Shown here one piece after another: positions 6,898 to 31,021 of a stretch of 40,401 nucleotides of DNA (position 1 is the stretch's first letter; each line of letters opens with the position of its first letter). Source of the stretch: a virus. The stretch is taken from IMG/VR virus record IMGVR_UViG_3300045988_056832, one strand, 5' to 3'. Made by a program: the position numbers and the translations under genes. Under the pieces are notes generated by a model. It saw nothing but the letters and a program-made list of their open reading frames with translations, was not told the DNA's origin and made no database searches.

Positions 6898-7904
6898 TGC
6901 CAAATCAAAACTTCTCTTTTGACTTGCAGACATTTGCAGGAACTACTTTAAAAGACGTGATTACGCCTACAGCTCTTTTTGATGATTATGTGGTGAGACG
7001 TACATCTGAATTATCTGCTCTTTTCCAATCAGGTATCGTTGCTCGTGATGAAAAGTTTGATAGCCTAGCGAGCGAAGCAGCTCAGGTTCATAATATGCCT
7101 TTCTTTGCTGACTTATCCGGCGATTCCGAAGATGTTGTCGAAGGTGCAACCCTTACTGCCGATAAAATCGGTTCTAAAATGGATACATCCACAACTATTC
7201 GCCGTGCTAAAATGTGGGGCGCGACTGACTTGTCTGCGCAATTATCCGGCACAGATCCTATGTCTGCTATTGGTGATTTAGTAGCAGGATTTTGGGCTCG
7301 TGATCACCAAAAAGAATTGATTAATATCTTGAATGGCGTATTTGCATCTACAAGCATGGCTGATCATGTATTGGATATTTCTACTAAAACAGCTAAAGCG
7401 GCGAATTTCTCTGGCGAAGCATTCATTGATGCAATGCAACTCATGGGTGATGCTCGCAACTCTTTAACAGCTGTTGCGATGCATTCTGCTACTAAGTCTT
7501 ACTTAGATAAGTTGAACCTCATTCAAACTATTCGCCAATCTGATGCTGTATCTTTTGATACTTACATGGGACGTCGCGTAATTGTTGATGATGGGTGCCC
7601 TGTTGATTCCGGAAATTATACAACATATTTGTTTGGTGAAGGTGCAATCGCATACGGCGTTGGACATCCTGTAGGATTGATTTCTGCAGAAGTTGATCGC
7701 GATAAAAAGATGGGCTCCGGTGTGGATTACTTAATCTCTCGTAAAGCATTTATCTTACATCCTCGCGGGGTTGCATGGCAAAACAAGACTCGTACTAATG
7801 CTGAATCTGTATCTCGTGCTGAATTAGCAAATAAAGATAACTGGAAAGCAGTGTACGAGCCTAAACAAATTCGCATTGTTAAGTTTGTGCATAAATTAGG
7901 CTAG
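6897..7904 (+). CDS. Major capsid protein
   Basis: 335 aa. ATG overlaps the scaffold stop. Position and size fit a major capsid protein. Confidence 0.75.
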   Translation: MPNQNFSFDLQTFAGTTLKDVITPTALFDDYVVRRTSELSALFQSGIVARDEKFDSLASEAAQVHNMPFFADLSGDSEDVVEGATLTADKIGSKMDTSTTIRRAKMWGATDLSAQLSGTDPMSAIGDLVAGFWARDHQKELINILNGVFASTSMADHVLDISTKTAKAANFSGEAFIDAMQLMGDARNSLTAVAMHSATKSYLDKLNLIQTIRQSDAVSFDTYMGRRVIVDDGCPVDSGNYTTYLFGEGAIAYGVGHPVGLISAEVDRDKKMGSGVDYLISRKAFILHPRGVAWQNKTRTNAESVSRAELANKDNWKAVYEPKQIRIVKFVHKLG

Positions 7905-7914
7905 GAGGTAGCGT

Positions 7915-9834
7915 ATGGGAGCCGATTCATATTGGGCTAGGCGAAGTATAGAACGCGAAGAGGAGTGGAATAAAAAAAGCCAATCCACCGTTGAAAAAGA
8001 ATTGGCCGCCCAGTATGAACGGTCGGCCCAACGTATCCAGGCTAATATTGAGCAGTTATACGGAAAGTTCGCTACAGATAACAACATTAGCATTTCTGAT
8101 GCTCGCAAGTTAATCAACGGGAGCGAATTTAGGACCTGGCGCAAGGATATTGAAGAGTATATTGAGGAGTACAATAAAACGGGGAATCCAAAATTATTGC
8201 TTGAACTTAATACTCTATCAATGAGATCAAGAATATCAAGACTTGATAAGTTGTACGGTGATACTCTTATCGAGATTGATAAGCTAGGACAAAAAACAGA
8301 CGCAACGATTACCGGCTTTTTAAAAAATGCATACAAAGATAATCGGTTGCACTCCGCATACGAACTGGCAAAGCGTGGTAGCGGCCCGCTAGGTGTCTCT
8401 GTTAACAATAAACAAATCGAAGGTATATTGCGTACGCCATGGAGTGGAAAAAACTATAGCGAGCGGATTTGGAATAATTCTGAGAAGCTTGCTAGGACTA
8501 TCCAAGATACTGTTGTTAATGGACTACATCGCGGGGCTAGTGTTAATAAGTTAGCAAAAGAGGTTCAAGATCGAATGAGCGTATCGAAAAACGATGCGGT
8601 GAGATTGGTTAGAACCGAGTTAAACTATGTTAATAATCAGGCCACTTTGGATTCAATTAAGGGCGCTAAGATGGAGTATTTCCAATTTATAGCAACGCTA
8701 GATAAAAGAACTTCATCTATATGCCGTGAACATGATAACAATATTTATCCTGTTGATGAGGCTGAAGTAGGAACAAATGTTCCGCCGCTGCATCCACGTT
8801 GCCGCTCTACGATCGCTGGCACAATTGGGCCAAAGAAACCGACAAGCGGATCACGTATTTCTAAAATGGAAACAGCAAAAGGGGCCCCTGTACAATATCA
8901 AAAGGTGCCTCGTAATATGGATTACGATAACTGGAAAGCTGTATATGTGGATCAATCAAAGACTTTTGCTGAGTGGCGTGGTGAGCAAAAGGCGGCTAAG
9001 ACCGTTAAATCTGTTACCCCTATTCACGATAAGCCTGTTACAACTGAAATGATACGCGATAAAATTGCAAAAATAGATTTACCAAATGCCACTCCACAGG
9101 ATATAATAAGTATAGGAAAGATGGTTGTTGAAAAACATAATATCGTTGATGCTATAGGTAATGCTGACGAGTTAAAGAAGGTATTGTCTGAATATCGTGA
9201 TATTGGTTCAACTGTTCCTAAAGAAATGTGGGCTAAGGGGTCTAATGCGGTAAATAAAAAATTATTGCAAGGAGCGTTTGATGTGTATCCTAGTGATTGG
9301 GTACAGTACTTAAAGGCTAACCATAAAAAGATTAGCACAAGAAAAGTTGACCGTGGATATTTCTACGGAGACGGCGCGATTGCTGGCAGGCGGCCAAGAT
9401 TGTTAGATGTACCTGGTGACGCGGTAAAAGATTATATCACCATTAATATGGATGGCGATATCAAATCTACCCCGTATCATGAAATCGGGCATATGGTAGA
9501 ATTTTTTAACAAGCACGCGAGCAGACTGTCTAACGAATTTCGCAATATGCGGACAAGAGGGGAAAAGCCTCAATACTTGTCCGAAATATTAGCCCATAAA
9601 GGGTATGGGGCAGAAATGACACTCCCTGATGATTTTATAAACCCTTATATCGGTAAAGAATATGAAAATGGCGCTACAGAAGTTCTCAGCGTTGGTCTTG
9701 AAAACATTTTTGCACAGGGATACAGTAATCAACCTAAACGTTTTAATCGTGATACTAAAAAATATGAATATGTACATATTTCTGATGACATGGAATATCT
9801 ACATTTCATTATAGGGATGGTTTTGACGGTATAA
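7915..9834 (+). CDS. Head morphogenesis protein (SPP1 gp7/Mu F) fused to a C-terminal HExxH domain
   Basis: MuF core ELNYVNNQATLDS...DKRTSSICREHDN...PPLHPRCRSTI. HEIGH at 9478..9492 (residue 522), with a downstream glutamate in ATEVLSVG. Confidence 0.8.
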   Translation: MGADSYWARRSIEREEEWNKKSQSTVEKELAAQYERSAQRIQANIEQLYGKFATDNNISISDARKLINGSEFRTWRKDIEEYIEEYNKTGNPKLLLELNTLSMRSRISRLDKLYGDTLIEIDKLGQKTDATITGFLKNAYKDNRLHSAYELAKRGSGPLGVSVNNKQIEGILRTPWSGKNYSERIWNNSEKLARTIQDTVVNGLHRGASVNKLAKEVQDRMSVSKNDAVRLVRTELNYVNNQATLDSIKGAKMEYFQFIATLDKRTSSICREHDNNIYPVDEAEVGTNVPPLHPRCRSTIAGTIGPKKPTSGSRISKMETAKGAPVQYQKVPRNMDYDNWKAVYVDQSKTFAEWRGEQKAAKTVKSVTPIHDKPVTTEMIRDKIAKIDLPNATPQDIISIGKMVVEKHNIVDAIGNADELKKVLSEYRDIGSTVPKEMWAKGSNAVNKKLLQGAFDVYPSDWVQYLKANHKKISTRKVDRGYFYGDGAIAGRRPRLLDVPGDAVKDYITINMDGDIKSTPYHEIGHMVEFFNKHASRLSNEFRNMRTRGEKPQYLSEILAHKGYGAEMTLPDDFINPYIGKEYENGATEVLSVGLENIFAQGYSNQPKRFNRDTKKYEYVHISDDMEYLHFIIGMVLTV

Positions 9835-9849
9835 AAAGGTGGTGACACA

Positions 9850-10068
9850 ATGAAATTACAAGAAGCGATTAATAAATTTAATACGTTGCGAGAATTGTAT
9901 TTGAATACATTCGGCGCTAATTCTTTAGACAGAGTAATTTATTGTGATCCACAACATATGACTGTCGATACTATCGAAAAAGGGTCCAGGATGTTAGCTA
10001 ATGCGATAGCGGACGGGGCTCCTTTGGAGCAGGTTGATGAAAAGACTTGGGAAAACTTGATATTCTAA
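9850..10068 (+). CDS. Hypothetical 72-aa protein (candidate immunity or partner of the MuF C-terminal domain)
   Basis: RBS AAGGTGGTG. It lies directly after the MuF fusion and before a terminator. Confidence 0.5.
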   Translation: MKLQEAINKFNTLRELYLNTFGANSLDRVIYCDPQHMTVDTIEKGSRMLANAIADGAPLEQVDEKTWENLIF

Positions 10069-10071
10069 AAG

Positions 10072-10094
10072 CACTCTACACAGGGTGTTTTTTT
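10072..10094 (+). terminator. Weak intrinsic terminator
   Basis: CACTCT-acac-AGGGTG followed by T7. Confidence 0.45.
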
Positions 10095-10121
10095 ATTGCC
10101 TAAATTCGAGGAGGTGATGCG

Positions 10122-10520
10122 ATGGGCAACGTACAATATTTAGAGTACGATAGTGCAATACAAGAGATCATTAATACATCAAAGCGGTTAATTAGTCTTA
10201 TTGATGGGTTGAAAGATATTGATCACACTACCATATTGACTTTATTTGCTGAAAAATTTGTATTGGATTGCCTGGATTATTGCCATCGAACAAATTTTCC
10301 TCGTACATTGATTTACACGGCTGCAGAATTGGCTGTTAAATATATCAAAGATAAACATGCTGACTCCCGCGGACCGTTAAAGTCATTAAAAGAAAATGAT
10401 GTTGAGTTCGAGTGGGCTGTTACAGACATTTCGCCAATCGGTTGTATTAGCGAAAAAGATTTTGAGTCTATTCGGCCTAAGTTGAATTTATATCGGAAAG
10501 TTGTGTGGTCCAATGGCTGA
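10122..10520 (+). CDS. Head-tail connector (gp6-like)
   Basis: Position and size. LDYCHRTNFPRTLIYTAAELAVKY-type helix pattern. RBS GAGGAGGTG. Confidence 0.55.
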   Translation: MGNVQYLEYDSAIQEIINTSKRLISLIDGLKDIDHTTILTLFAEKFVLDCLDYCHRTNFPRTLIYTAAELAVKYIKDKHADSRGPLKSLKENDVEFEWAVTDISPIGCISEKDFESIRPKLNLYRKVVWSNG

Positions 10521-10875
10521 TATATACGGCAAGTTGTTGGCTGACATTATGTATAAAGACAGCTGTACTATATCTCGTCAAATGGAAACGACTGATGATA
10601 TAGGCGCAGATGTCTATGATATTGTTGCAGTGTATTCGAACGTTCCGTGTAAGCTCGGACAAACTGGGCAAAGCAGCATGAATGGGCTTGAAACTGACCG
10701 GGCCTTTTCTCTGAAGGATCATTTGCGGCTGTCGCTATCGGCTGAGTACGATGTTAAGGCTAATGATATAATTACAATTCAACATAAGGGACAAACGTTT
10801 GTAATGCGCGCTGACACGCCATTTAAATATATGACACATCAGGAGATTACGTTAATTCGTAATGGCGAGGCTTGA
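10513..10875 (+). CDS. Head closure / head-tail adaptor protein
   Basis: The ATG at 10513 overlaps the upstream stop. Position in the connector block. Confidence 0.5.
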   Translation: MADIYGKLLADIMYKDSCTISRQMETTDDIGADVYDIVAVYSNVPCKLGQTGQSSMNGLETDRAFSLKDHLRLSLSAEYDVKANDIITIQHKGQTFVMRADTPFKYMTHQEITLIRNGEA

Positions 10876-23703: not shown

Positions 23704-25150
<1,447 letters not shown>

Positions 25151-25492: not shown

Positions 25493-25838
25493 AAGATCAT
25501 ATCAATCTGTAAGGGTGGCTAATATCCACCCTACAGGTGTATTAGCGACGAGGGTACTAGTATTAGTTATGCTAGTACCTATTTTATTGGTGATTACTCA
25601 ATATATCATGGCTTTTATTAGTGGTTATGTATCAGACGAAGCCAATAAGATAATTAGCGTTGGTATTAATATCATAGATCATATCTTTATTCCGTCTGTG
25701 TTAACTGCATTAGTAGGGTTCTTGGCGTTATGGGTTGATAAGGATGGAAACGGTGTTCCAGATAAGCTAGAGGAACCTCCTAAAATACCGATTAATACCG
25801 TAGTAAACGAAAGGAGTGATTATAATGCACCTCGTTAG
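25458..25838 (+). CDS. Putative holin
   Basis: ATG preceded by AAGGAGGAG. Two hydrophobic segments, VLVLVMLVPILLVITQYIMAFI and IPSVLTALVGFLALWV. Confidence 0.5.
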   Translation: MNIPPNLINTVKRSYQSVRVANIHPTGVLATRVLVLVMLVPILLVITQYIMAFISGYVSDEANKIISVGINIIDHIFIPSVLTALVGFLALWVDKDGNGVPDKLEEPPKIPINTVVNERSDYNAPR

Positions 25839-26367
25839 TCTTACTGATTTAAATGACTATTGCCGTAGAGCTTTAAGTCAGATTAGTAAAATATATTTGC
25901 ATTGGACGGCAGGTAGGTACAATCAACAATTTGATGACTACCACATTAACATTGATAGGGATGGCAACATTTACATTGATGGTGAATTAACAGACCATAA
26001 GAACCATACCTATATGCGCAATGGTTCTGCGGTAGGTATTGCTTTAGACTGTGCTTATGGGGCTCAATGGACTGATAATCTTGGTGAATATGCACCTACA
26101 GATGCACAGATTGAAACTTTAGCGCAAGTGGTAGCGTTGCTGTGTGTTGACCTTGGCATTCCGTGTGATATTAGACATGTTCTCACCCATGCCGAGGCCG
26201 CCGATAACATGGACGGCTACTATGCTCACGAACCGTATGGACCTACTACAACATGTGAACGATGGGACTTATGGGCTATACGTGAGGGTGATGTTCCTGG
26301 TTCTGGTGGCGATGTAATTCGTGGCAAAGCTAAATATTATGCTCAACAATGGGGAAGTAATATATAG
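25825..26367 (+). CDS. Endolysin, N-acetylmuramoyl-L-alanine amidase (PGRP/Amidase_2-like), catalytic domain only
   Basis: IYLHWTAGRY...HINIDRDG...GIALDC...LTHAEAAD pattern. RBS AAGGAG 8 nt upstream. Confidence 0.7.
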   Translation: MHLVSLTDLNDYCRRALSQISKIYLHWTAGRYNQQFDDYHINIDRDGNIYIDGELTDHKNHTYMRNGSAVGIALDCAYGAQWTDNLGEYAPTDAQIETLAQVVALLCVDLGIPCDIRHVLTHAEAADNMDGYYAHEPYGPTTTCERWDLWAIREGDVPGSGGDVIRGKAKYYAQQWGSNI

Positions 26368-26376
26368 GGGGTATAT

Positions 26377-26811
26377 ATGTATGAGAAATTTAAAACTATA
26401 TTTTCTGCCTATAGGGGCTATTGCACTGCTATTGTGGTGCTTATTGTTTGCATCATCTGTGTATGGGTCTACTCCAACAGAACCAGTAACATTGACACCA
26501 CAGGAATACGCAACGCTGAAAACGAACTTCGACACGCTAGAGAATACAATAGACAGTCAGTTGAATACAATCAACGCATTAGAACAGCAGTTGAAAGTAG
26601 CCAAACTCTCAACGAGCGAACAGAAGAACGAATTAATACAAGCCTTGAACTTAATCAACGAACAGAAAACGCAATTGATAGAAGCACGGAACTTACTGCA
26701 AAAGCAAGAACAGATGCTGAACGAGCAAAAGCTATCATTAGCGAAAGCAGAAATATACTTAGAGCAGCAGAAGAACGAAATCAAAAAAGCGAAAATGCAA
26801 CAACGAAATAG
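26377..26811 (+). CDS. Membrane-anchored coiled-coil protein. An alternative frame, 26381..26869, is equally open.
   Basis: N-terminal TM CTAIVVLIVCIICVWVY. By eye this frame has purine-rich first and A/T-rich third codon positions. The frame choice is not secure. Confidence 0.4.
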   Translation: MYEKFKTIFSAYRGYCTAIVVLIVCIICVWVYSNRTSNIDTTGIRNAENELRHAREYNRQSVEYNQRIRTAVESSQTLNERTEERINTSLELNQRTENAIDRSTELTAKARTDAERAKAIISESRNILRAAEERNQKSENATTK

Positions 26812-26948
26812 TAAATTACTTAATATCTTATTAGGTGGTGCTGTTGTATACCTAGTAGCCAAGAATTGAGGTGATCCATGCATCTCCCTACCATACGAGG
26901 GTGGACGTGTGGATAGTCCAATATTTGGTGATTTATTAGACTAAAGAG

Positions 26949-26999
26949 GGCCTTAGTCCAAGAAATGATGATTTTCTAGACTAAGGCCTTTATTTTTTT
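26949..26999 (+). terminator. Intrinsic terminator at the end of the late/lysis operon
   Basis: GGCCTTAGTC (26949..26958) pairs with GACTAAGGCC (26979..26988), followed by TTTATTTTTTT. Confidence 0.65.
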
Positions 27000-27017
27000 G
27001 ACATCATTTTGACATCA
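26997..27017 (+). repeat. Two tandem TTTGACATCA repeats (putative integrase arm-type sites, P arm)
   Basis: Copies at 26997..27006 and 27008..27017. The same decamer recurs three times on the other side of the core. Confidence 0.6.
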
Positions 27018-27117
27018 GATTATATAAAAATATAGTGAAATATAAATAGATACGCAAGTAATAGAGTTAGGTGGTTACTGTATTTATAAGTTTTATGCAT
27101 GAACTTTAAATGCCACG

Positions 27118-27177
27118 CCATCTTGAGGGGGTGGTGAGCTAACGCTCGTGCGGGTTCAAGTCCCGCCAACCGCACCA
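27118..27177 (+). other. attP core: 3' portion of a tRNA-Leu(GAG)-like gene (anticodon arm, long variable arm, T arm, 3' acceptor, CCA)
   Basis: CCATC-TTGAGGG-GGTGG, GAGC-taac-GCTC, GCGGG-TTCAAGT-CCCGC, CAACCGC-A-CCA. No matching 5' acceptor or D arm lies upstream. Confidence 0.7.
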
Positions 27178-27189
27178 AGCTAATAAAAT

Positions 27190-27225
27190 AAGGGCTTACA
27201 GGTAATTCTGTGAGCCCTTATTTTT
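27190..27225 (+). terminator. Intrinsic terminator after the tRNA fragment (also faces the end of int)
   Basis: AAGGGCTTACA-ggtaattc-TGTGAGCCCTT followed by ATTTTT. Confidence 0.65.
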
Positions 27226-27226
27226 G

Positions 27227-27272
27227 TTTGACATCATAAAGTCTTATGGGGTTTGACATCATTTTGACATCA
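27227..27272 (+). repeat. Three TTTGACATCA repeats (P' arm)
   Basis: Copies at 27227..27236, 27252..27261 and 27263..27272. The last overlaps the int stop codon. Confidence 0.6.
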
Positions 27273-28343
27273 GAAAATTTTAGCAATGCGTTCCACGATG
27301 TCATCTTCCATTTTAGGAGTGACGTGTGAATAGGTATCCATTGTTTCTTGAAACGAAGCATGGCCTAGGCGCTCTTGTATGGCTTTCATATTTGCCCCAT
27401 TTTCAATGAGAAGTGTGGCGTGGGTATGTCTTGTACCGTGCATAGTAAAAGTTGGCTTACCGATTAAATTGGCGTATTTCTTACATAACTTACTGACTTC
27501 ATCAGGGCAGCGAGGTGCACCTTTAATGCCAGGGAATACTAGATTATTATTAATCCAGTTCATTGTCTTAATTCTGCGTTTATCTATGACTGTTTTATGT
27601 TTTGCAAGTTCCTGAAGAGTTTCCGTATCAATGGCTATTATTCGTTTGGATGATGTAGTTTTAGTTGTATTTGATATAACTGCAGTTGATCCGATTTTGA
27701 GTGCTGTTTGTGAAATGGATATGGTCGATTTCTTAAAGTCGATATCAGACCATCTTAGGCCTAGCAATTCAGATCGCCGCATGCCGGTTGCAAATGCTAA
27801 TTTAAATAATGCATGGTGTTCGGAATTTGATATATTTGATAGGAAATTTTTAACTTCATCTGCAGACAACGTTACCATATGGCGTACTTTAACCTGTTTT
27901 GGCCTATCAAGGTTACGCATATAATTTTTTGGGATGATATCATCTTTTACTGCTTGTTCTAATATCGAGCTCAGTATCGTCATGGTGTATGATATAGTTC
28001 GAGAGGATAAACCATCCATAGATTCAAATACATATCTTAGTGTGTTTGGCTTGATTTCAGCCAACTTTACACCGCCGATCTTATCTCGAATATAGCGATT
28101 TATGATGCCTGTATAACTTTGATAGGTAGCTGGTGTTATGCTCTTTTCTTTTAGTTGCAACCAAATATTAATCCAGGTATTTAATGAGATGGTAGCATCG
28201 AAATTGGCGCACGATTGGTTAGCGTTTATATATTTCTCCATCGCTTCCGTAGCAGCTTTCTTTGTGCTGCCATAAAAGTATTTTCGCTTGCCATTTATCA
28301 CCTTTGACACTTGGTAGCGGCCATCGGGTCGTTTTTTAGCCAT
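27270..28343 (-). CDS. int: Phage integrase (tyrosine recombinase with an N-terminal arm-binding domain)
   Basis: MAKKRPDGRYQVSKVINGKRKYFYG arm domain, GMRRSELLGL, HGTRHTHATLL, LGHASFQETMDTYSH. The start is set at the ATG downstream of the terminator hairpin. Confidence 0.9.
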   Translation of the reverse strand: MAKKRPDGRYQVSKVINGKRKYFYGSTKKAATEAMEKYINANQSCANFDATISLNTWINIWLQLKEKSITPATYQSYTGIINRYIRDKIGGVKLAEIKPNTLRYVFESMDGLSSRTISYTMTILSSILEQAVKDDIIPKNYMRNLDRPKQVKVRHMVTLSADEVKNFLSNISNSEHHALFKLAFATGMRRSELLGLRWSDIDFKKSTISISQTALKIGSTAVISNTTKTTSSKRIIAIDTETLQELAKHKTVIDKRRIKTMNWINNNLVFPGIKGAPRCPDEVSKLCKKYANLIGKPTFTMHGTRHTHATLLIENGANMKAIQERLGHASFQETMDTYSHVTPKMEDDIVERIAKIF

Positions 28344-28370
28344 ATTTTTAATCCTTATAATAATTAATAA

Positions 28371-28411
28371 AAAGATGAGGCCTTGTTCCATAAGAACAAG
28401 GCCTCATCTTT
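28371..28411 (-). terminator. Strong intrinsic terminator between the MazF-fold gene and int
   Basis: 18-bp perfect stem AAAGATGAGGCCTTGTTC / GAACAAGGCCTCATCTTT with a 5-nt loop. T-rich on the minus strand. Confidence 0.75.
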
Positions 28412-28522
28412 AGTTGCGGCTAAACCGCTTATAATGATTTTAGTTTAGGGCTAAACCCCTTTGTTCTTATATTATAGAATAGATGTAAAAAAAAATCAAC
28501 AGTTTTAAACTTTATTATAGGT

Positions 28523-29266
28523 TTACTTTATATCGTATAACTCTTTTATAACTGCTCGAATTTTATCAGTCACATGTTTATCTACTCGCATATTATAAAG
28601 TGCATCTTTATGATATCTAGGACTTTGTATGCGTATTTTACTTATAGTCCTTATTTGAGAAACAATGGCAACGGTGCCTGCATTTAACCGCGACACTTCT
28701 TTCATGATTATATCGTGCTTAGCAAGTAGGTCTTTGGCTTCAGCTAACTGTTTTTCAAAGCGTTTAACATCATTAGCCGTTAACGTCTTTTTGTCAGTAT
28801 TTTCGAATTCCTTTACATACTCTTCGCATTTGTCTAACATCTTTCCGGATCTATCCAGTAGAACTGTAAATAATTCTGTTCCCAAATAAACATCTGTTTT
28901 ATATAGTGTTTTTGGACTCTCTTTGCTTAACTTCAAAGACCTCAGAGGGACAACTGTGACTGTGCTGCTTTTAGAATTACTAGGTGCAAGTACTATCGCA
29001 TAATGAAGGCCCCCGAACTCAGATCCTATCCCAAAGCCCAAGTCTACTTTAACTATATCTCCAGGTTTAAATTGAGGAAAATACTTTGGATCAAAAGTTT
29101 CTTCTTGTTTTATATATCTTAAATAATTACGCAGCCAATAATAGAGCAGGGCAGCCTTGTGTTGATCTGAACCTAGTATATTTTTTAAAAACGCACTTAT
29201 GTTACTCGCAAGTTCCGTTATTTTCGACAATAAAGCCCCTTTGTTTTCCGGCTTTTTTAAATCCAT
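28523..29266 (-). CDS. MazF/PemK-fold protein with an N-terminal helical extension and a large internal coiled-coil insertion
   Basis: PGDIVKVDLGFGIGSEFGGLHYAIVLA, VTVVPLRS, GTVAIVSQIRTISKIRI. Start at MDLKKPENKG, with RBS AAGGAG 7 nt upstream. Confidence 0.7.
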   Translation of the reverse strand: MDLKKPENKGALLSKITELASNISAFLKNILGSDQHKAALLYYWLRNYLRYIKQEETFDPKYFPQFKPGDIVKVDLGFGIGSEFGGLHYAIVLAPSNSKSSTVTVVPLRSLKLSKESPKTLYKTDVYLGTELFTVLLDRSGKMLDKCEEYVKEFENTDKKTLTANDVKRFEKQLAEAKDLLAKHDIIMKEVSRLNAGTVAIVSQIRTISKIRIQSPRYHKDALYNMRVDKHVTDKIRAVIKELYDIK

Positions 29267-29342
29267 ACAAAAACTCCTTGTTGTACATTTTATATTTTCC
29301 TTTATTATAAAGCCCTTTGCCTCGTAGCAGGACAGGGGATTT

Positions 29343-29912
29343 TTATATCCCGAAAATCCCTCTAATGATGCTACGACTACGTTCGTGTTTAGCTTTACGC
29401 TCAGCTTCTTTTTGTTGTGCAATTCTTGCTTCCTGTTGTTCTTTTGCTAGTTGCTCTTTTTCTTCAGCACGTGCTTGTGCCTCTGCAGCTTGTTGCTTTT
29501 TGTAGTCTGCTAATTTAACGTCACGGCCGACTAGTCCCTTTACAGATGCAATAAGCGCTTCATCACCCATTCCTGGGGCAGCGACATGGTTTTGGCCGTT
29601 AAAATTATAGTTACTAATTATGGAATCAGATCCGCTTCGATATATGTTTCTATCAAATAAATCAACGGAATTATCAGAGAAATGAATTCTATAAGATAAA
29701 AGTTCTTGTGTTCCTAAAGTTCGTACCCATACGGCCCAAGCCCTAGCTGTGTCGGTAGAAGGGTCGTAGGACAATGTGTTTAAATCGACTTTCCCTGTGT
29801 AATCAGAATTTGAATAAAACCATTGCCAACGTGCGTCATTGAATTCTTTAGCACTAACCATCATTGTTACGCATAGTACAAATATTGTTGCTAATACTAA
29901 CCCTTTTTTCAT
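29343..29912 (-). CDS. Secreted or membrane-associated protein with a charged C-terminal coiled coil
   Basis: Signal peptide MKKGLVLATIFVLCVTMMVSA. C-terminal KKQQAAEAQARAEEKEQLAKEQQEARIAQQKEAERKAKHE. Confidence 0.65.
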   Translation of the reverse strand: MKKGLVLATIFVLCVTMMVSAKEFNDARWQWFYSNSDYTGKVDLNTLSYDPSTDTARAWAVWVRTLGTQELLSYRIHFSDNSVDLFDRNIYRSGSDSIISNYNFNGQNHVAAPGMGDEALIASVKGLVGRDVKLADYKKQQAAEAQARAEEKEQLAKEQQEARIAQQKEAERKAKHERSRSIIRGIFGI

Positions 29913-29929
29913 ATTGTCATCTCCCTGTG

Positions 29930-30196
29930 TTAAATTATGTGGTGATAGAAATCGATTCCGTTAAGGTCCCCATCTTCAATTTGAGACATCCTTACCATAC
30001 GTTCGACTAAGTTAACGTGATGTTCCACATAAAAGTCATCACGAATAATATGAATTAATTCATGCTTAATTTCTTCCCTCATGCGATCATGGGGAAGATT
30101 TTTATTTATGTAGATATTATGGGTATCCACATCTTCACATTCCTCTGACACAGCGTTGGCATGTGGTAAGTCACAGTAAATTACATTAACTACCAA
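29930..30196 (-). CDS. Mini ImmA/IrrE-like metallopeptidase (88 aa)
   Basis: HELIHI (HExxH). Immediately downstream of the XRE repressor in the same operon. Confidence 0.5.
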   Translation of the reverse strand: MVVNVIYCDLPHANAVSEECEDVDTHNIYINKNLPHDRMREEIKHELIHIIRDDFYVEHHVNLVERMVRMSQIEDGDLNGIDFYHHII

Positions 30197-30217
30197 ATTA
30201 ACACTCTCCCTTATATA

Positions 30218-30604
30218 CTATTTATTTTTTAATTTTAATAGTTCTATATATTCAACTGCTTTCTCCATATCCTCCTTACTAATATCTTTTGCCGCAGAGA
30301 ATAGCATACGAGCACCTGGGCGTGTGCGCAAGTACTCAGCGAATTCAGCTGCTTCTTTATCTAGGTAATATTCCTCTTCGGTTTTATCTTGCCTTTCTAC
30401 TAATTCTGATTTTGGCACGTGAAAATAGTTTGCCATCATTTCAATTTTATCTATTCTTGGATATGTATTGCCTTTCAACCAATCTGTTAAAGTAGTGTAT
30501 TTAAACCCTAAATCAGCACATAGTTTATTTCTGTCTATTCCTCGGCTATCCATTAGCCTTTGGAGATTTTGCGCCATAATTTCCTTATTGCCTAAATCAC
30601 TCAT
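30218..30604 (-). CDS. XRE-family HTH repressor (CI-like)
   Basis: IMAQNLQRLMDSRGIDRNKLCADLGFKYTTLTDWLKGNTYPRIDKIEMMANYF. Divergent from the cro-like gene. Confidence 0.8.
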   Translation of the reverse strand: MSDLGNKEIMAQNLQRLMDSRGIDRNKLCADLGFKYTTLTDWLKGNTYPRIDKIEMMANYFHVPKSELVERQDKTEEEYYLDKEAAEFAEYLRTRPGARMLFSAAKDISKEDMEKAVEYIELLKLKNK

Positions 30605-30646
30605 CTCAAATTTCCTCTCTATAATAAATTCATAATAATTAATAAC

Positions 30647-30675
30647 ATAATACGATATTTCCGTAATAAATTCAA
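30647..30675 (-). promoter_or_regulatory. Leftward (repressor) promoter TTGAAT-17 nt-TATTAT
   Basis: On the + strand, attcaa at 30670..30675 and ataata at 30647..30652. The spacer contains ATTACGGAAAT. Confidence 0.4.
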
Positions 30676-30737
30676 TATTTAAACTAAAATTTTACGATAA
30701 TTTACGGAAATTTAATAGACATTACGGTAAAACCGTA
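30657..30737. promoter_or_regulatory. Operator cluster built on TTACGG motifs
   Basis: ATTTCCGTAAT at 30657..30667, TTACGATAAT at 30692..30701, TTACGGAAAT at 30702..30711, and the palindrome at 30723..30737. Confidence 0.55.
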
Positions 30738-30744
30738 GTATACT
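30716..30744 (+). promoter_or_regulatory. Rightward early promoter TAGACA-17 nt-TATACT with an operator palindrome in the spacer
   Basis: -35 at 30716..30721, -10 at 30739..30744. TACGGTAAAACCGTA at 30723..30737. Confidence 0.55.
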
Positions 30745-30788
30745 CTAGTCATGATAATAAGTGACGTTAATAAGAAAGGAGGTAATTT

Positions 30789-30977
30789 ATGAAGTATACA
30801 CTTAGAATGCTCCGCGCATCCAAGTCTTGGACACAAGCTCAAGCCGCAAAAGAAATTGGCGTATCTACTGAGACTTGGGGGAATTGGGAGCGTAAGCGAT
30901 CTTATCCGGATGTACCAAACATATCTAAGATAGAACGGGTATTCAATGTCGCTTATGATGATATTATTTTTTTATAG
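30789..30977 (+). CDS. Cro-like XRE HTH protein
   Basis: LRMLRASKSWTQAQAAKEIGVSTETWGNWERKRSYPD. RBS AAGGAGG. Confidence 0.8.
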   Translation: MKYTLRMLRASKSWTQAQAAKEIGVSTETWGNWERKRSYPDVPNISKIERVFNVAYDDIIFL

Positions 30978-30982
30978 TGAGT

Positions 30983-30997
30983 TACGGTTTTACCGTA
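30983..30997. promoter_or_regulatory. Distal copy of the operator palindrome (TACGGTTTTACCGTA)
   Basis: Exact reverse complement of 30723..30737. It lies just after the cro-like stop codon. Confidence 0.5.
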
Positions 30998-31021
30998 AAT
31001 AATTTGAAGAAAGGAGAAAAT

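What the first reader, a model, noticed from the sequence alone, without database searches (positions are those of the whole stretch)
28523..29266. Orphan, elaborated MazF/PemK-fold protein in the lysogeny operon: candidate prophage defence or abortive-infection gene
The three core MazF/PemK segments are visible: PGDIVKVDLGFGIGSEFGGLHYAIVLA, VTVVPLRS and GTVAIVSQIRTISKIRI. The protein is 247 aa rather than about 110. It has a roughly 65-aa helical N-terminal extension. It also has a roughly 75-aa charged coiled-coil insertion (KTLYKTDVYLG...LAKHDIIMKEVSRLNAG) between the core strands. No small MazE/PemI/AbrB-type antitoxin ORF lies next to it. The upstream gene encodes a 189-aa secreted protein, and the downstream sequence is a terminator. 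It lies between the repressor operon and int, which is the classic position for lysogen-expressed morons. The extensions may act as a built-in regulator or sensor.
Basis: partly seen in the sequence, partly recalled or inferred. Interest (0 to 1): 0.7.

Follow-up and report, generated by a model that had tools for sequence, protein, structure and literature searches.

The report
Sma-like single-protein MazF antiphage gene
This Veillonella phage gene encodes an enlarged, partner-less MazF-type RNA-cutting toxin of the known "Sma" family, which resident phages and islands carry to block rival phages, so it is a distant new member rather than a new kind.

Summary
Window 28523-29266 (minus strand) encodes a 247-aa protein with a MazF/PemK core. 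The core carries a ~65-aa N-terminal helical hairpin and is split by a ~66-aa helical hairpin. This rests on the Pfam match, HMM alignments to solved MazF structures, and an AF2 model (pLDDT 92.6) whose best PDB fold matches are all MazF.

No antitoxin gene lies next to it. It sits between the cI/ImmA repressor genes and int, ahead of a 19-bp-stem terminator.

It is not an orphan oddity. It matches PHROG 1412 over its full length. It is homologous, with the same split architecture, to ORF005 of SaPIpT1028 (26% identity; hhalign 99.2%). [quoted passage not shown]

The family has about 390 clusters at 50% identity. They are mostly in Bacillota prophages, typically between repressor and integrase.

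Family features are an invariant His at the catalytic-Arg position, PL[T/S]S-K and SK-R motifs, and a conserved YW helix. A near-identical Veillonella parvula prophage carries a 36%-identical allele in exactly this slot.

Verdict: new, distant member of a known kind. The defence role is inferred by homology and untested here.

The parts
28523..29266 (-). Sma-like gene: 247-aa single-protein MazF-like protein. The stop codon is at 28523-28525.
   Evidence: ORF. Pfam PemK_toxin. PHROG 1412 over full length, E=2.9e-51. AF2 model plus Foldseek matches to MazF. Homology to SaPIpT1028 ORF005.
29093..29266 (-). N-terminal helical hairpin, aa 1-58. Helix 1 is variable. Helix 2 (aa 35-58) carries the conserved KAALLYYWLR..Y.K.E..F motif.
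   Evidence: DSSP on the model. W44 is present in 169/172 members, E55 in 170/172 and F58 in 164/172. Helix 2 is the most conserved segment both deep in the family and among close relatives.
28880..29068 (-). MazF core, N-terminal half (aa 67-129). It contains GSEFGGLH88YA and VPLR109S110LK112.
   Evidence: Aligns to MazF 4-53. E83 172/172, H88 170/172, P107 171/172, S110 171/172.
28682..28879 (-). Helical-hairpin insertion, aa 130-195 (helices 131-155 and 164-193), in the beta4-beta5 loop of the MazF fold.
   Evidence: Model. Insertion length ranges 49-113 aa across the family and this is the most variable segment. Among close relatives, variation peaks at the hairpin tip, aa ~147-170.
28526..28681 (-). 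MazF core, C-terminal half plus C-terminal helix (aa 196-247). It contains QIRTIS209K210IR212...P216.
   Evidence: Aligns to MazF 70-107. K210 172/172, S209 169/172, R212 168/172, P216 171/172.
29274..29279 (-). Shine-Dalgarno AAGGAG, 7 nt upstream of the ATG at 29266.
   Evidence: Read directly from the sequence.
28371..28411 (-). Intrinsic-terminator-like hairpin (19-bp stem, 8 GC pairs, T-rich tail) that closes the cI-to-Sma transcription unit just ahead of int.
   Evidence: Terminator scan.
28371..29339 (-). Exchangeable cassette: the gene plus both intergenic regions. It has no DNA homology to the otherwise 83-90% identical Veillonella parvula UTDB1-3 prophage, which carries a 36%-identical allele in the same slot.
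   Evidence: blastn mosaic analysis. Protein identities of the flanking genes.
29343..29912 (-). Context: upstream 189-aa protein with a signal-peptide-like N-terminus. It is not a conserved partner.
   Evidence: ORF. No Pfam or PHROG family. Homologues occur next to Sma-like genes in only two other Veillonella loci of 89.
29930..30604 (-). Context: ImmA/IrrE-like M78 protein (29930-30196) and cI-like HTH repressor (30218-30604), at the head of the lysogeny operon.
   Evidence: Pfam Peptidase_M78 and HTH_26/HTH_3.
27270..28343 (-). Context: tyrosine integrase, downstream of the terminator.
   Evidence: Pfam Phage_integrase E=2.8e-30.

Best explanation
[quoted passage not shown] It is carried as a self-contained, exchangeable moron cassette in the repressor-to-integrase lysogeny operon of a Veillonella temperate phage.

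Proposed mechanism, step by step:
- Inferred from position, orientation, own SD and terminator: the gene is transcribed in the lysogen together with, or just downstream of, cI.
- Shown by sequence and model: the product is a MazF-fold protein with a complete, strongly conserved active-site-like constellation, GSE-GG-L-His88-Tyr, PL-x-Ser110-x-Lys112 and Ser209-Lys210-x-Arg212. His replaces the canonical catalytic Arg.
- Shown as architecture, inferred as function: instead of a separate MazE antitoxin, the protein carries two helical hairpins, one N-terminal and one inserted in the beta4-beta5 loop. The model's high confidence over the whole chain (pTM 0.84) suggests that they pack with the core as one compact unit; their packing itself was not inspected, because no model coordinates were available. 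They may keep the enzyme latent and/or sense an infecting phage.
- Inferred by homology to Sma and to MazF: on infection by a heterologous phage the protein is activated and cleaves RNA. This stops translation and aborts the infection, which protects the lysogen population and the resident prophage.
For: Fold and split architecture.

Family membership:
- Full-length PHROG 1412 hits for the window protein (E=2.9e-51).
- The same for SaPIpT1028 ORF005 (4e-67), phage 77 ORF017 and pneumococcal phiARI0004 gp24.
- BLASTP to ORF005: 26% identity, E=4e-14 over residues 32-247.
- hhalign: 99.2% probability, E=1.6e-19.
- ORF005 is the only MazF-like ORF in the SaPIpT1028 record.

Literature:
[quoted passage not shown] - Sma is also found integrated in prophages (PMC13123717 section 11).
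- FS_Sma is among the commonest defence systems in cultured phage genomes, with 26 hits (bioRxiv 10.64898/2026.05.06.722914).

No antitoxin:
- No ORF of 20 aa or more lies in the gaps.
- A census of two ORFs on each side in ~77 loci finds no MazE, AbrB or PemI family. It finds repressor HTH (28), S24 (10) and M78 (10) upstream. It finds tyrosine integrases (30) and serine recombinases (7) downstream.

Defence-like company and evolution:
- Abi_2, Fic, RhuM and MTase-GmrSD-HEPN genes share the same slot in relatives.
- The cassette is replaced precisely between otherwise 83-90% identical prophages.
- Variation is concentrated at the hairpin tip.

Purifying selection on active-site-like residues across 172 non-redundant members.
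Against: No phenotype, toxicity or RNA cleavage was or could be tested here.

The link to the one characterised member is remote (26% identity). The equation ORF005 = Sma is made by elimination, because the primary paper (Cell 185:3248) is not held in the library.

PADLOC-DB v2.0.0 gives no meaningful hit. The DefenseFinder FS_Sma model could not be run.

The canonical catalytic Arg is His in this family. The window protein has Arg109 where most members have Thr or Ser, so the catalytic chemistry is not simply that of MazF.

Regulation by the helical module is pure inference. The model coordinates could not be inspected for where the helices pack.

Promoter-like matches are no more frequent than chance, so expression in the lysogen is not shown.
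Confidence: 0.65

Rival explanations
1. It is a conventional type II MazF/PemK toxin whose antitoxin has been overlooked. Candidates are the cI-like XRE repressor, the upstream 189-aa protein, or a host-encoded MazE. The module would then serve mainly as a prophage addiction or stabilisation system.
For: [quoted passage not shown] In some relatives an XRE-HTH gene abuts the gene directly: the gap is 0 nt in L001-L003 and there is an overlap in phiARI0004. XRE-HTH antitoxins are known in other TA families (general knowledge).
Against: The immediate neighbours differ between loci. HTH proteins occur in only about a third of them, and they are the phage repressors, paired with S24 or M78 domains. 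In the window two unrelated genes separate cI from the gene.

The 189-aa neighbour looks secreted and recurs in only 2 of 89 loci.

The recombination boundaries enclose the gene alone. No MazE, AbrB or PemI family was found nearby. The characterised relative is described as a single-protein system (PMC12409344).
Confidence: 0.1
2. It is a phage-serving RNase rather than a defence gene. A lysogeny-expressed endoribonuclease would tune the prophage's own lysis-lysogeny decision or host physiology, for example by degrading lytic or host transcripts. Exclusion of other phages would be incidental or absent.
For: The gene has a fixed position inside the cI-int module in many Bacillota phages. The putative active site is conserved. 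No experimental phenotype exists for this clade.
Against: A core lysogeny function would not be expected to be optional. It would also not be swapped for 36%-identical alleles between near-identical prophages. Nor would it share its slot with Abi_2, Fic, RhuM or GmrSD/HEPN genes. Its homologue on SaPIpT1028 is reported as an antiphage system (PMC12409344).
Confidence: 0.15
3. It is a catalytically dead MazF-fold scaffold that acts by binding. It could be a decoy or antitoxin-like inhibitor of host MazEF or of another defence, as the PHROG label 'antitoxin mazE-like' suggests. Alternatively it could be a CcdB-like protein poison.
For: The canonical catalytic Arg is replaced by His in 170/172 members. 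The window protein has Arg at the Thr/Ser position 109. PHROG 1412 is labelled 'antitoxin mazE-like'. The MazF/CcdB fold is also used by non-nuclease toxins (general knowledge).
Against: There is near-absolute conservation of a polar and charged constellation at MazF active-site and RNA-binding positions: E83, H88, S110, K112, S209, K210 and R212. This pattern is typical of an enzyme. His is a classical general acid/base in RNases.

No part of the protein matches any MazE, AbrB or RHH family at E<=1. Sequence similarity is to MazF, not CcdB.
Confidence: 0.07

Closest known systems
[quoted passage not shown]
   Same: Both are single proteins of ~250-265 aa with no antitoxin. Both have an N-terminal helix with the YW motif. 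Both have a MazF core split by a coiled-coil insertion. Both carry GSE-GG-His-[YF]-A, PL-x-S and SISK motifs. Both hit PHROG 1412 over full length. Both are carried next to int on a mobile element and oriented with the lysogeny genes.
   Different: Identity is only 26%. The host is a Gram-negative-type Firmicute (Veillonella, Negativicutes) rather than Staphylococcus. The carrier is a temperate phage, with the gene between cI/ImmA and int, rather than a SaPI, where it lies just downstream of int. The N-terminal extension is longer and the insertion shorter. The window protein has R212 where ORF005 has Lys, and R109 where ORF005 has Ser. No experimental data exist for this clade.
Canonical type II MazF/PemK/EndoA endoribonucleases (e.g. 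B. subtilis 4MDX, S. aureus 4MZM, E. coli 5CR2)
   Same: Same core fold, with Foldseek target TM up to ~0.8. Shared GSE-GG loop and QIRTI-K-R strand motifs.
   Different: About 110 aa against 247 aa. No MazE partner. Two helical hairpins are added. The catalytic Arg25/29 is replaced by an invariant His. The equivalent of the catalytic Thr is T/S in only 77% of members, and it is followed by an invariant Ser.
GajC of type II Gabija (E. coli; NAR 2026, PMC13069673)
   Same: [quoted passage not shown]
   Different: GajC works with a GajB UvrD-like helicase partner. No helicase is encoded next to the window gene. Sequence relatedness to GajC could not be tested because no sequence was at hand.
Fused toxin-antitoxin sensors such as CapRel(SJ46) (analogy from general knowledge)
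   Same: Both are one polypeptide that combines a toxin domain with a possible autoinhibitory or sensor module, are prophage-encoded, and follow abortive-infection logic.
   Different: The toxin fold is unrelated (RelA/SpoT-like tRNA pyrophosphokinase). For the window protein, autoinhibition and sensing are hypothetical.

Membership tests
[quoted passage not shown] | Contains a MazF/PemK-fold domain | tested here: met
   Pfam PF02452 E=1.6e-8. hhalign to BsMazF 95.2%. AF2 model plus Foldseek: all top PDB hits are MazF.
[quoted passage not shown] | Single protein: no cognate antitoxin gene | tested here: met
   No ORF of 20 aa or more in the flanking gaps. No MazE, AbrB or PemI family among 300 neighbouring ORFs of ~77 loci. 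The cassette boundaries enclose only this gene.
[quoted passage not shown] | Full-length homology to the prototype protein of SaPIpT1028 | tested here: met
   BLASTP E=4e-14, 26% identity, residues 32-247. hhalign 99.2%, E=1.6e-19. Both hit PHROG 1412 end to end. Caveat: ORF005 = Sma is inferred because it is the only MazF-like ORF of the island.
[quoted passage not shown] | Passes the DefenseFinder FS_Sma HMM threshold | not testable with these tools
   The model is not available here. PADLOC-DB v2.0.0 returned only a spurious DrmB hit.
[quoted passage not shown] | Carried by a mobile element and expressed in the lysogenic state | tested here: inconclusive
   Location and orientation in the cI-to-int operon, an own SD and a terminator fit. 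Expression itself was not measured, and the promoter scan is no better than chance.
[quoted passage not shown] | Confers protection against phages (abortive infection) | not testable with these tools
   This needs plaque and growth assays.
PHROG 1412 ('antitoxin mazE-like') | Full-length match to the family profile | tested here: met
   E=2.9e-51, residues 20-245 to profile 9-235 of 237. The family label is misleading: nothing MazE-like was detected.
Canonical type II MazEF/PemIK toxin | Compact ~110-aa toxin with an adjacent upstream antitoxin gene | tested here: not met
   247 aa with two helical hairpins. No antitoxin.
Canonical type II MazEF/PemIK toxin | Catalytic Arg (Bs R25 / Ec R29) in the beta1-beta2 loop | tested here: not met
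   It aligns to His88 in both phmmer and hhalign. His occurs in 170/172 members and Arg in 2.
Canonical type II MazEF/PemIK toxin | Catalytic Thr (Bs T48 / Ec T52) | tested here: inconclusive
   hhalign and Pro-anchoring place it at residue 109. That residue is Arg in the window protein and T/S in 133/172 members. phmmer places it at the invariant Ser110.
Type II Gabija (GajB + split-MazF GajC) | Adjacent GajB UvrD-type helicase partner | tested here: not met
   The neighbours are a 189-aa signal-peptide protein and an integrase.

The most novel reading that the evidence does not exclude
The Sma-like family may be a mechanistically distinct, self-regulated nuclease rather than 'MazF without MazE'. 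The invariant Arg-to-His swap would give RNase-A-like acid/base chemistry, perhaps with a different RNA target such as tRNA or rRNA. The two helical hairpins (the conserved YW helix plus the insertion hairpin) would act as a built-in antitoxin and sensor. The fast-evolving hairpin tip would directly recognise a protein of the invading phage, in the manner of CapRel. That would explain why near-identical Veillonella prophages carry 36%-identical alleles.
Probability: 0.3. Interest if true: 0.55.

Novelty: new member of a known kind. Interest (0 to 1): 0.3.

Why it matters
It extends an experimentally described staphylococcal defence (Sma) to temperate phages of Veillonella. It also shows the family is broad: about 390 clusters at 50% identity, across Streptococcus, Staphylococcus, Lachnospiraceae, Clostridium and Veillonella. 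Members almost always occupy the repressor-integrase slot.

The family-wide motif set gives concrete mutagenesis targets: His in place of the catalytic Arg, invariant Ser110, Lys210 and Arg212, and the YW helix. The clean allele replacement between near-identical prophages gives a natural experiment for specificity.

The analysis also flags two annotation problems. PHROG labels the family 'antitoxin mazE-like'. NCBI and IMG label it a type II TA toxin. Both hide its likely role as a stand-alone antiphage gene.

None of this is a new kind of system.

Tried and rejected
- PADLOC-DB gave only a chance DrmB hit.
- NCBIfam gave nothing near any cut-off.
- Megablast of 27000-31000 against cultured phages found no match.
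- Look-up of contigs encoding P0053 found nothing.
- The primary Sma paper (Cell 185:3248) is not held by DOI or PMID. Its mechanistic details could not be used, so only secondary citations are quoted.
- Sigma-70 promoter matches around the gene are no more frequent than in shuffles (14 against 15.5), so no promoter is claimed.
- The 76-nt gap upstream of the gene does not fold better than shuffles (z=-0.17). No attenuator or terminator is claimed there.
- Rfam found nothing meaningful in 26700-29500 except a tmRNA 3'-end-like fragment outside the gene.
- I considered the 189-aa upstream protein as a partner and rejected it. It looks secreted, recurs in only two Veillonella loci, and lies outside the exchanged cassette.
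- I considered the XRE/cI protein as antitoxin and rejected it as a general partner.
- I considered a MazE-like part within the protein, as the PHROG label suggests. There is no support at E<=1 in Pfam or NCBIfam.
- I could not inspect the model coordinates. Where the helical module packs (dimer interface or RNA groove) is therefore unknown.

Full report
**What is there**

The minus strand of window 28523-29266 carries a 247-aa ORF. Three facts support the ATG at 29266 as the start:
- A consensus AAGGAG lies 7 nt upstream (29274-29279; sequence).
- Every homologue begins at the same Met.
- The longer 299-aa TTG ORF would overlap the upstream gene by 80 nt.

On the same strand the gene order is:
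- cI-like HTH repressor (30218-30604)
- ImmA/IrrE M78-like protein (29930-30196)
- a 189-aa protein with a signal-peptide-like N-terminus (29343-29912)
- the target gene
- a terminator-like hairpin with a 19-bp stem and a T-rich tail (28411-28371)
- a tyrosine integrase (27270-28343)

No ORF of 20 aa or more lies in either intergenic gap.

The exact protein is on record on a JGI/IMG contig of 40,401 bp, the length of the window. [quoted passage not shown] The element is therefore a Veillonella temperate phage.

**Is it MazF-like, and elaborated?**

Yes. The evidence is as follows:
- Pfam PemK_toxin passes its gathering score (E=1.6e-8). It covers only residues 67-118, which align to the first half of the profile.
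- phmmer against PDB sequences aligns residues 67-108 to MazF 4-47 and residues 195-232 to MazF 70-107.
- A 44-sequence family profile aligns to B. subtilis MazF across the gap with 95.2% probability.
- An AlphaFold2 model built on that alignment is confident throughout (mean pLDDT 92.6, pTM 0.84).
- The top 50 Foldseek matches of the model in the PDB are all MazF/Kid-family chains (target TM 0.65-0.81, best E=7.5e-6).

The model shows this layout:
- an N-terminal helical hairpin (helices 6-33 and 35-54)
- MazF strands at 70-129
- a second helical hairpin (helices 131-155 and 164-193)
- the remaining strands at 198-215
- the C-terminal helix at 230-243

Residues 125-129 (DVYLG) form a core strand. 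The insertion is about residues 130-195 and replaces MazF's short beta4-beta5 loop.

**It belongs to a large, already recognised family**

The protein matches PHROG 1412 end to end (E=2.9e-51).

tblastn against cultured phages finds 31 records. They include Staphylococcus phages 77, P954 and StB27, pneumococcal and other streptococcal prophages, streptococcal satellites, and 'phage' PT1028.

A word-indexed protein search gives 79 relatives. A profile search of 1.84 billion 50%-identity cluster representatives gives 389 clusters at E<=1e-30 and 1018 at E<=1e-10. The listed hits are nearly all 230-330 aa and match over full length.

A genome scan finds 107 relatives. Nearly all are in Bacillota: Veillonella, Lachnospiraceae, Streptococcus, Clostridium, Gemella and others.

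**The literature link**

[quoted passage not shown] 2022, Cell 185:3248). Three further points bear on this:
- The same gene name is used for a chromosomal copy in S. aureus island vSa-alpha (PMC12829572 section 6).
- Sma has been noted 'integrated into other prophages' (PMC13123717 section 11).
- FS_Sma is one of the commonest defence systems detected in cultured phage genomes, with 26 hits (bioRxiv 10.64898/2026.05.06.722914).

In the 15.6-kb PT1028 record, ORF005 (265 aa) is the only ORF that resembles MazF or the family profile. I therefore take ORF005 to be Sma. This is an inference, because the primary paper is not held.

ORF005 aligns to the window protein over residues 32-247 (26% identity, E=4e-14). 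It aligns to the family profile with 99.2% probability. It shows the same YW helix, GSE-GG-His-Phe-Ala, PL-S-S, a coiled-coil insertion and SISK. It hits PHROG 1412 full length, as do phage 77 ORF017 and phiARI0004 gp24.

**Genomic logic**

Relatives sit in the same place in:
- phage 77 and phiARI0004
- oral and gut metagenomic prophages

I ran a Pfam census of the two ORFs on each side in about 77 loci. Upstream it finds:
- repressor-type HTH: 28
- LexA-like S24: 10
- ImmA M78: 10

Downstream it finds:
- tyrosine integrases: 30
- serine recombinases: 7

It finds no MazE, AbrB or PemI antitoxin family.

Other occupants of the same slot in relatives are Abi_2, Fic, RhuM and an MTase-GmrSD-HEPN trio.

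The clearest evidence comes from the prophage of V. parvula UTDB1-3:
- It shares 90% DNA identity with the window across int (27114-28370).
- It shares 83% across the 189-aa gene and ImmA (29340-30229).
- It has no detectable DNA homology across 28371-29339, which is exactly the gene plus its two intergenic regions.
- It still encodes a 36%-identical family member there.

Conversely, V. parvula f34 shares only the cassette (68% DNA identity, 28341-29271). That copy lies between a different upstream gene and a serine recombinase.

The gene is thus a discrete, exchangeable moron. Its neighbours, including the 189-aa protein, are not obligate partners. The 189-aa protein has homologues in only two other loci.

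**Anatomy that bears on mechanism**

I examined 172 non-redundant members, each under 70% identical to the others. The near-invariant positions are:

| Position | Count |
|---|---|
| E83 | 172/172 |
| G85/G86 | 171/172 |
| H88 | 170 His, 2 Arg |
| Y89 | 168 |
| P107 | 171 |
| S110 | 171 |
| K112 | 154 |
| S209 | 169 |
| K210 | 172 |
| R212 | 168 |
| P216 | 171 |
| W44 (N-terminal helix 2) | 169 |
| E55 (N-terminal helix 2) | 170 |
| F58 (N-terminal helix 2) | 164 |

His88 aligns to the catalytic Arg25 of B. subtilis MazF in both independent alignments.

The catalytic Thr48 aligns either to position 109 or to the invariant Ser110:
- hhalign and Pro-anchoring to E. coli VPCT52 favour position 109. 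That position is T/S in 133 of 172 members and Arg in the window protein.
- phmmer favours Ser110.

I cannot resolve this one-residue ambiguity without coordinates.

Segment conservation is informative. Helix 2 of the N-terminal hairpin is the most conserved part, at 1.27 bits of entropy. The insertion, at 2.59 bits, and helix 1 are the most variable. Insertion length ranges from 49 to 113 aa.

Among 57 close relatives (55% identity or more), helix 2 differs at 1.5% of positions and the insertion at 23%. The variation peaks at the hairpin tip, residues ~147-170.

**Best mechanism**

What is shown is a MazF-fold protein under strong purifying selection at active-site-equivalent positions. It has no antitoxin gene. 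It sits in a lysogeny-oriented, terminator-bounded, exchangeable cassette, in the company of defence genes.

What is inferred has three parts:
- The protein is made in the lysogen.
- It is kept latent by its own helical module rather than by a MazE.
- It is switched on by an incoming phage to cleave RNA and abort the infection, as reported at the phenotype level for Sma.

Replacement of the catalytic Arg by His suggests altered, RNase-A-like acid/base chemistry. The variable hairpin tip is a candidate sensor surface. Both are hypotheses.

I put 0.65 on the overall explanation and about 0.9 on family membership alone.

**Rivals**

- A conventional TA toxin with a missed antitoxin: 0.1. The variable neighbours and the cassette boundaries argue against it.
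- A phage-serving regulatory RNase: 0.15. Its optional nature and allele swapping argue against it.
- A catalytically dead binder or 'MazE-like' protein: 0.07. The conserved polar constellation and the absence of any MazE-like signal argue against it.

**Comparison and novelty**

In function and architecture the protein is the same kind of thing as Sma. It fails two defining features of canonical type II MazF toxins, namely a compact toxin with an adjacent antitoxin and the catalytic Arg. It lacks the helicase partner of the type II Gabija split-MazF GajC (PMC13069673).

It is a distant new member of a known kind, in a new host lineage (Negativicutes) and on a temperate phage.

The useful outputs are the family-wide motif map, the breadth census, the natural allele-swap pair, and the note that the current labels obscure the likely function. 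Those labels are 'antitoxin mazE-like' and 'type II TA toxin'.

Noticed in passing
window 26997-27274: A fragment like the 3' end of a tRNA or tmRNA (GGTTCAAGTCCCGCCAACCGCACCA, ~27150-27176) gives an Rfam tmRNA 3'-end match at E=0.006. ARAGORN finds no whole gene. It is flanked by five exact copies of TTTGACATCA (26997, 27008, 27227, 27252, 27263; 0.12 expected), including a 23-bp exact direct repeat. This is probably the attP core with integrase arm-type sites, which would imply integration into the 3' end of a host tRNA or ssrA gene.
   Followed up: partly
window 28371-29339 compared with L042 (Veillonella parvula UTDB1-3) and L010 (V. parvula f34): There are sharp mosaic boundaries. The flanks are 83-90% identical to L042, with no homology across the Sma-like cassette. 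L010 shares only the cassette, next to a serine recombinase instead of the tyrosine integrase. The left boundary coincides with the terminator hairpin and the right boundary with the stop codon of the upstream gene.
   Followed up: yes
window 29343-29912 (minus strand): A 189-aa protein has a signal-peptide-like N-terminus and a highly charged, Gln/Glu/Ala/Lys-rich C-terminal third. It matches no Pfam, PHROG or NCBIfam family. Homologues (66-75% identity) occur only in two other Veillonella prophages, again just upstream of an Sma-like gene. It may be a separate lysogenic-conversion or superinfection-exclusion moron.
   Followed up: partly
window 24050-25150 (plus strand): A 366-aa protein carries several collagen-like G-x-y repeat runs ([25 protein letters not shown]...). 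It is probably a tail fibre. It is followed by an amidase-like 183-aa ORF (25816-26367) and two overlapping out-of-frame ORFs (26321-26869 and 26377-26811) in the lysis region.
   Followed up: no
L001-L003 (oral metagenome prophages), locus coordinates ~7500-10600: In these relatives the slot between the Sma-like gene and int also holds an N6/N4 methyltransferase, a GmrSD_N protein and a HEPN (RiboL-PSP/MAE_28990) protein. In L005/L006 the slot upstream holds Abi_2 or Fic plus RhuM. The cI-int interval therefore behaves as a defence hotspot in these phages.
   Followed up: no
PHROG 1412; NCBI and IMG names: The PHROG family label 'antitoxin mazE-like' is not supported by any MazE-like signal in these proteins. 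RefSeq phage records have inherited it, for example phage 77, P954 and phiARI0004.
   Followed up: partly
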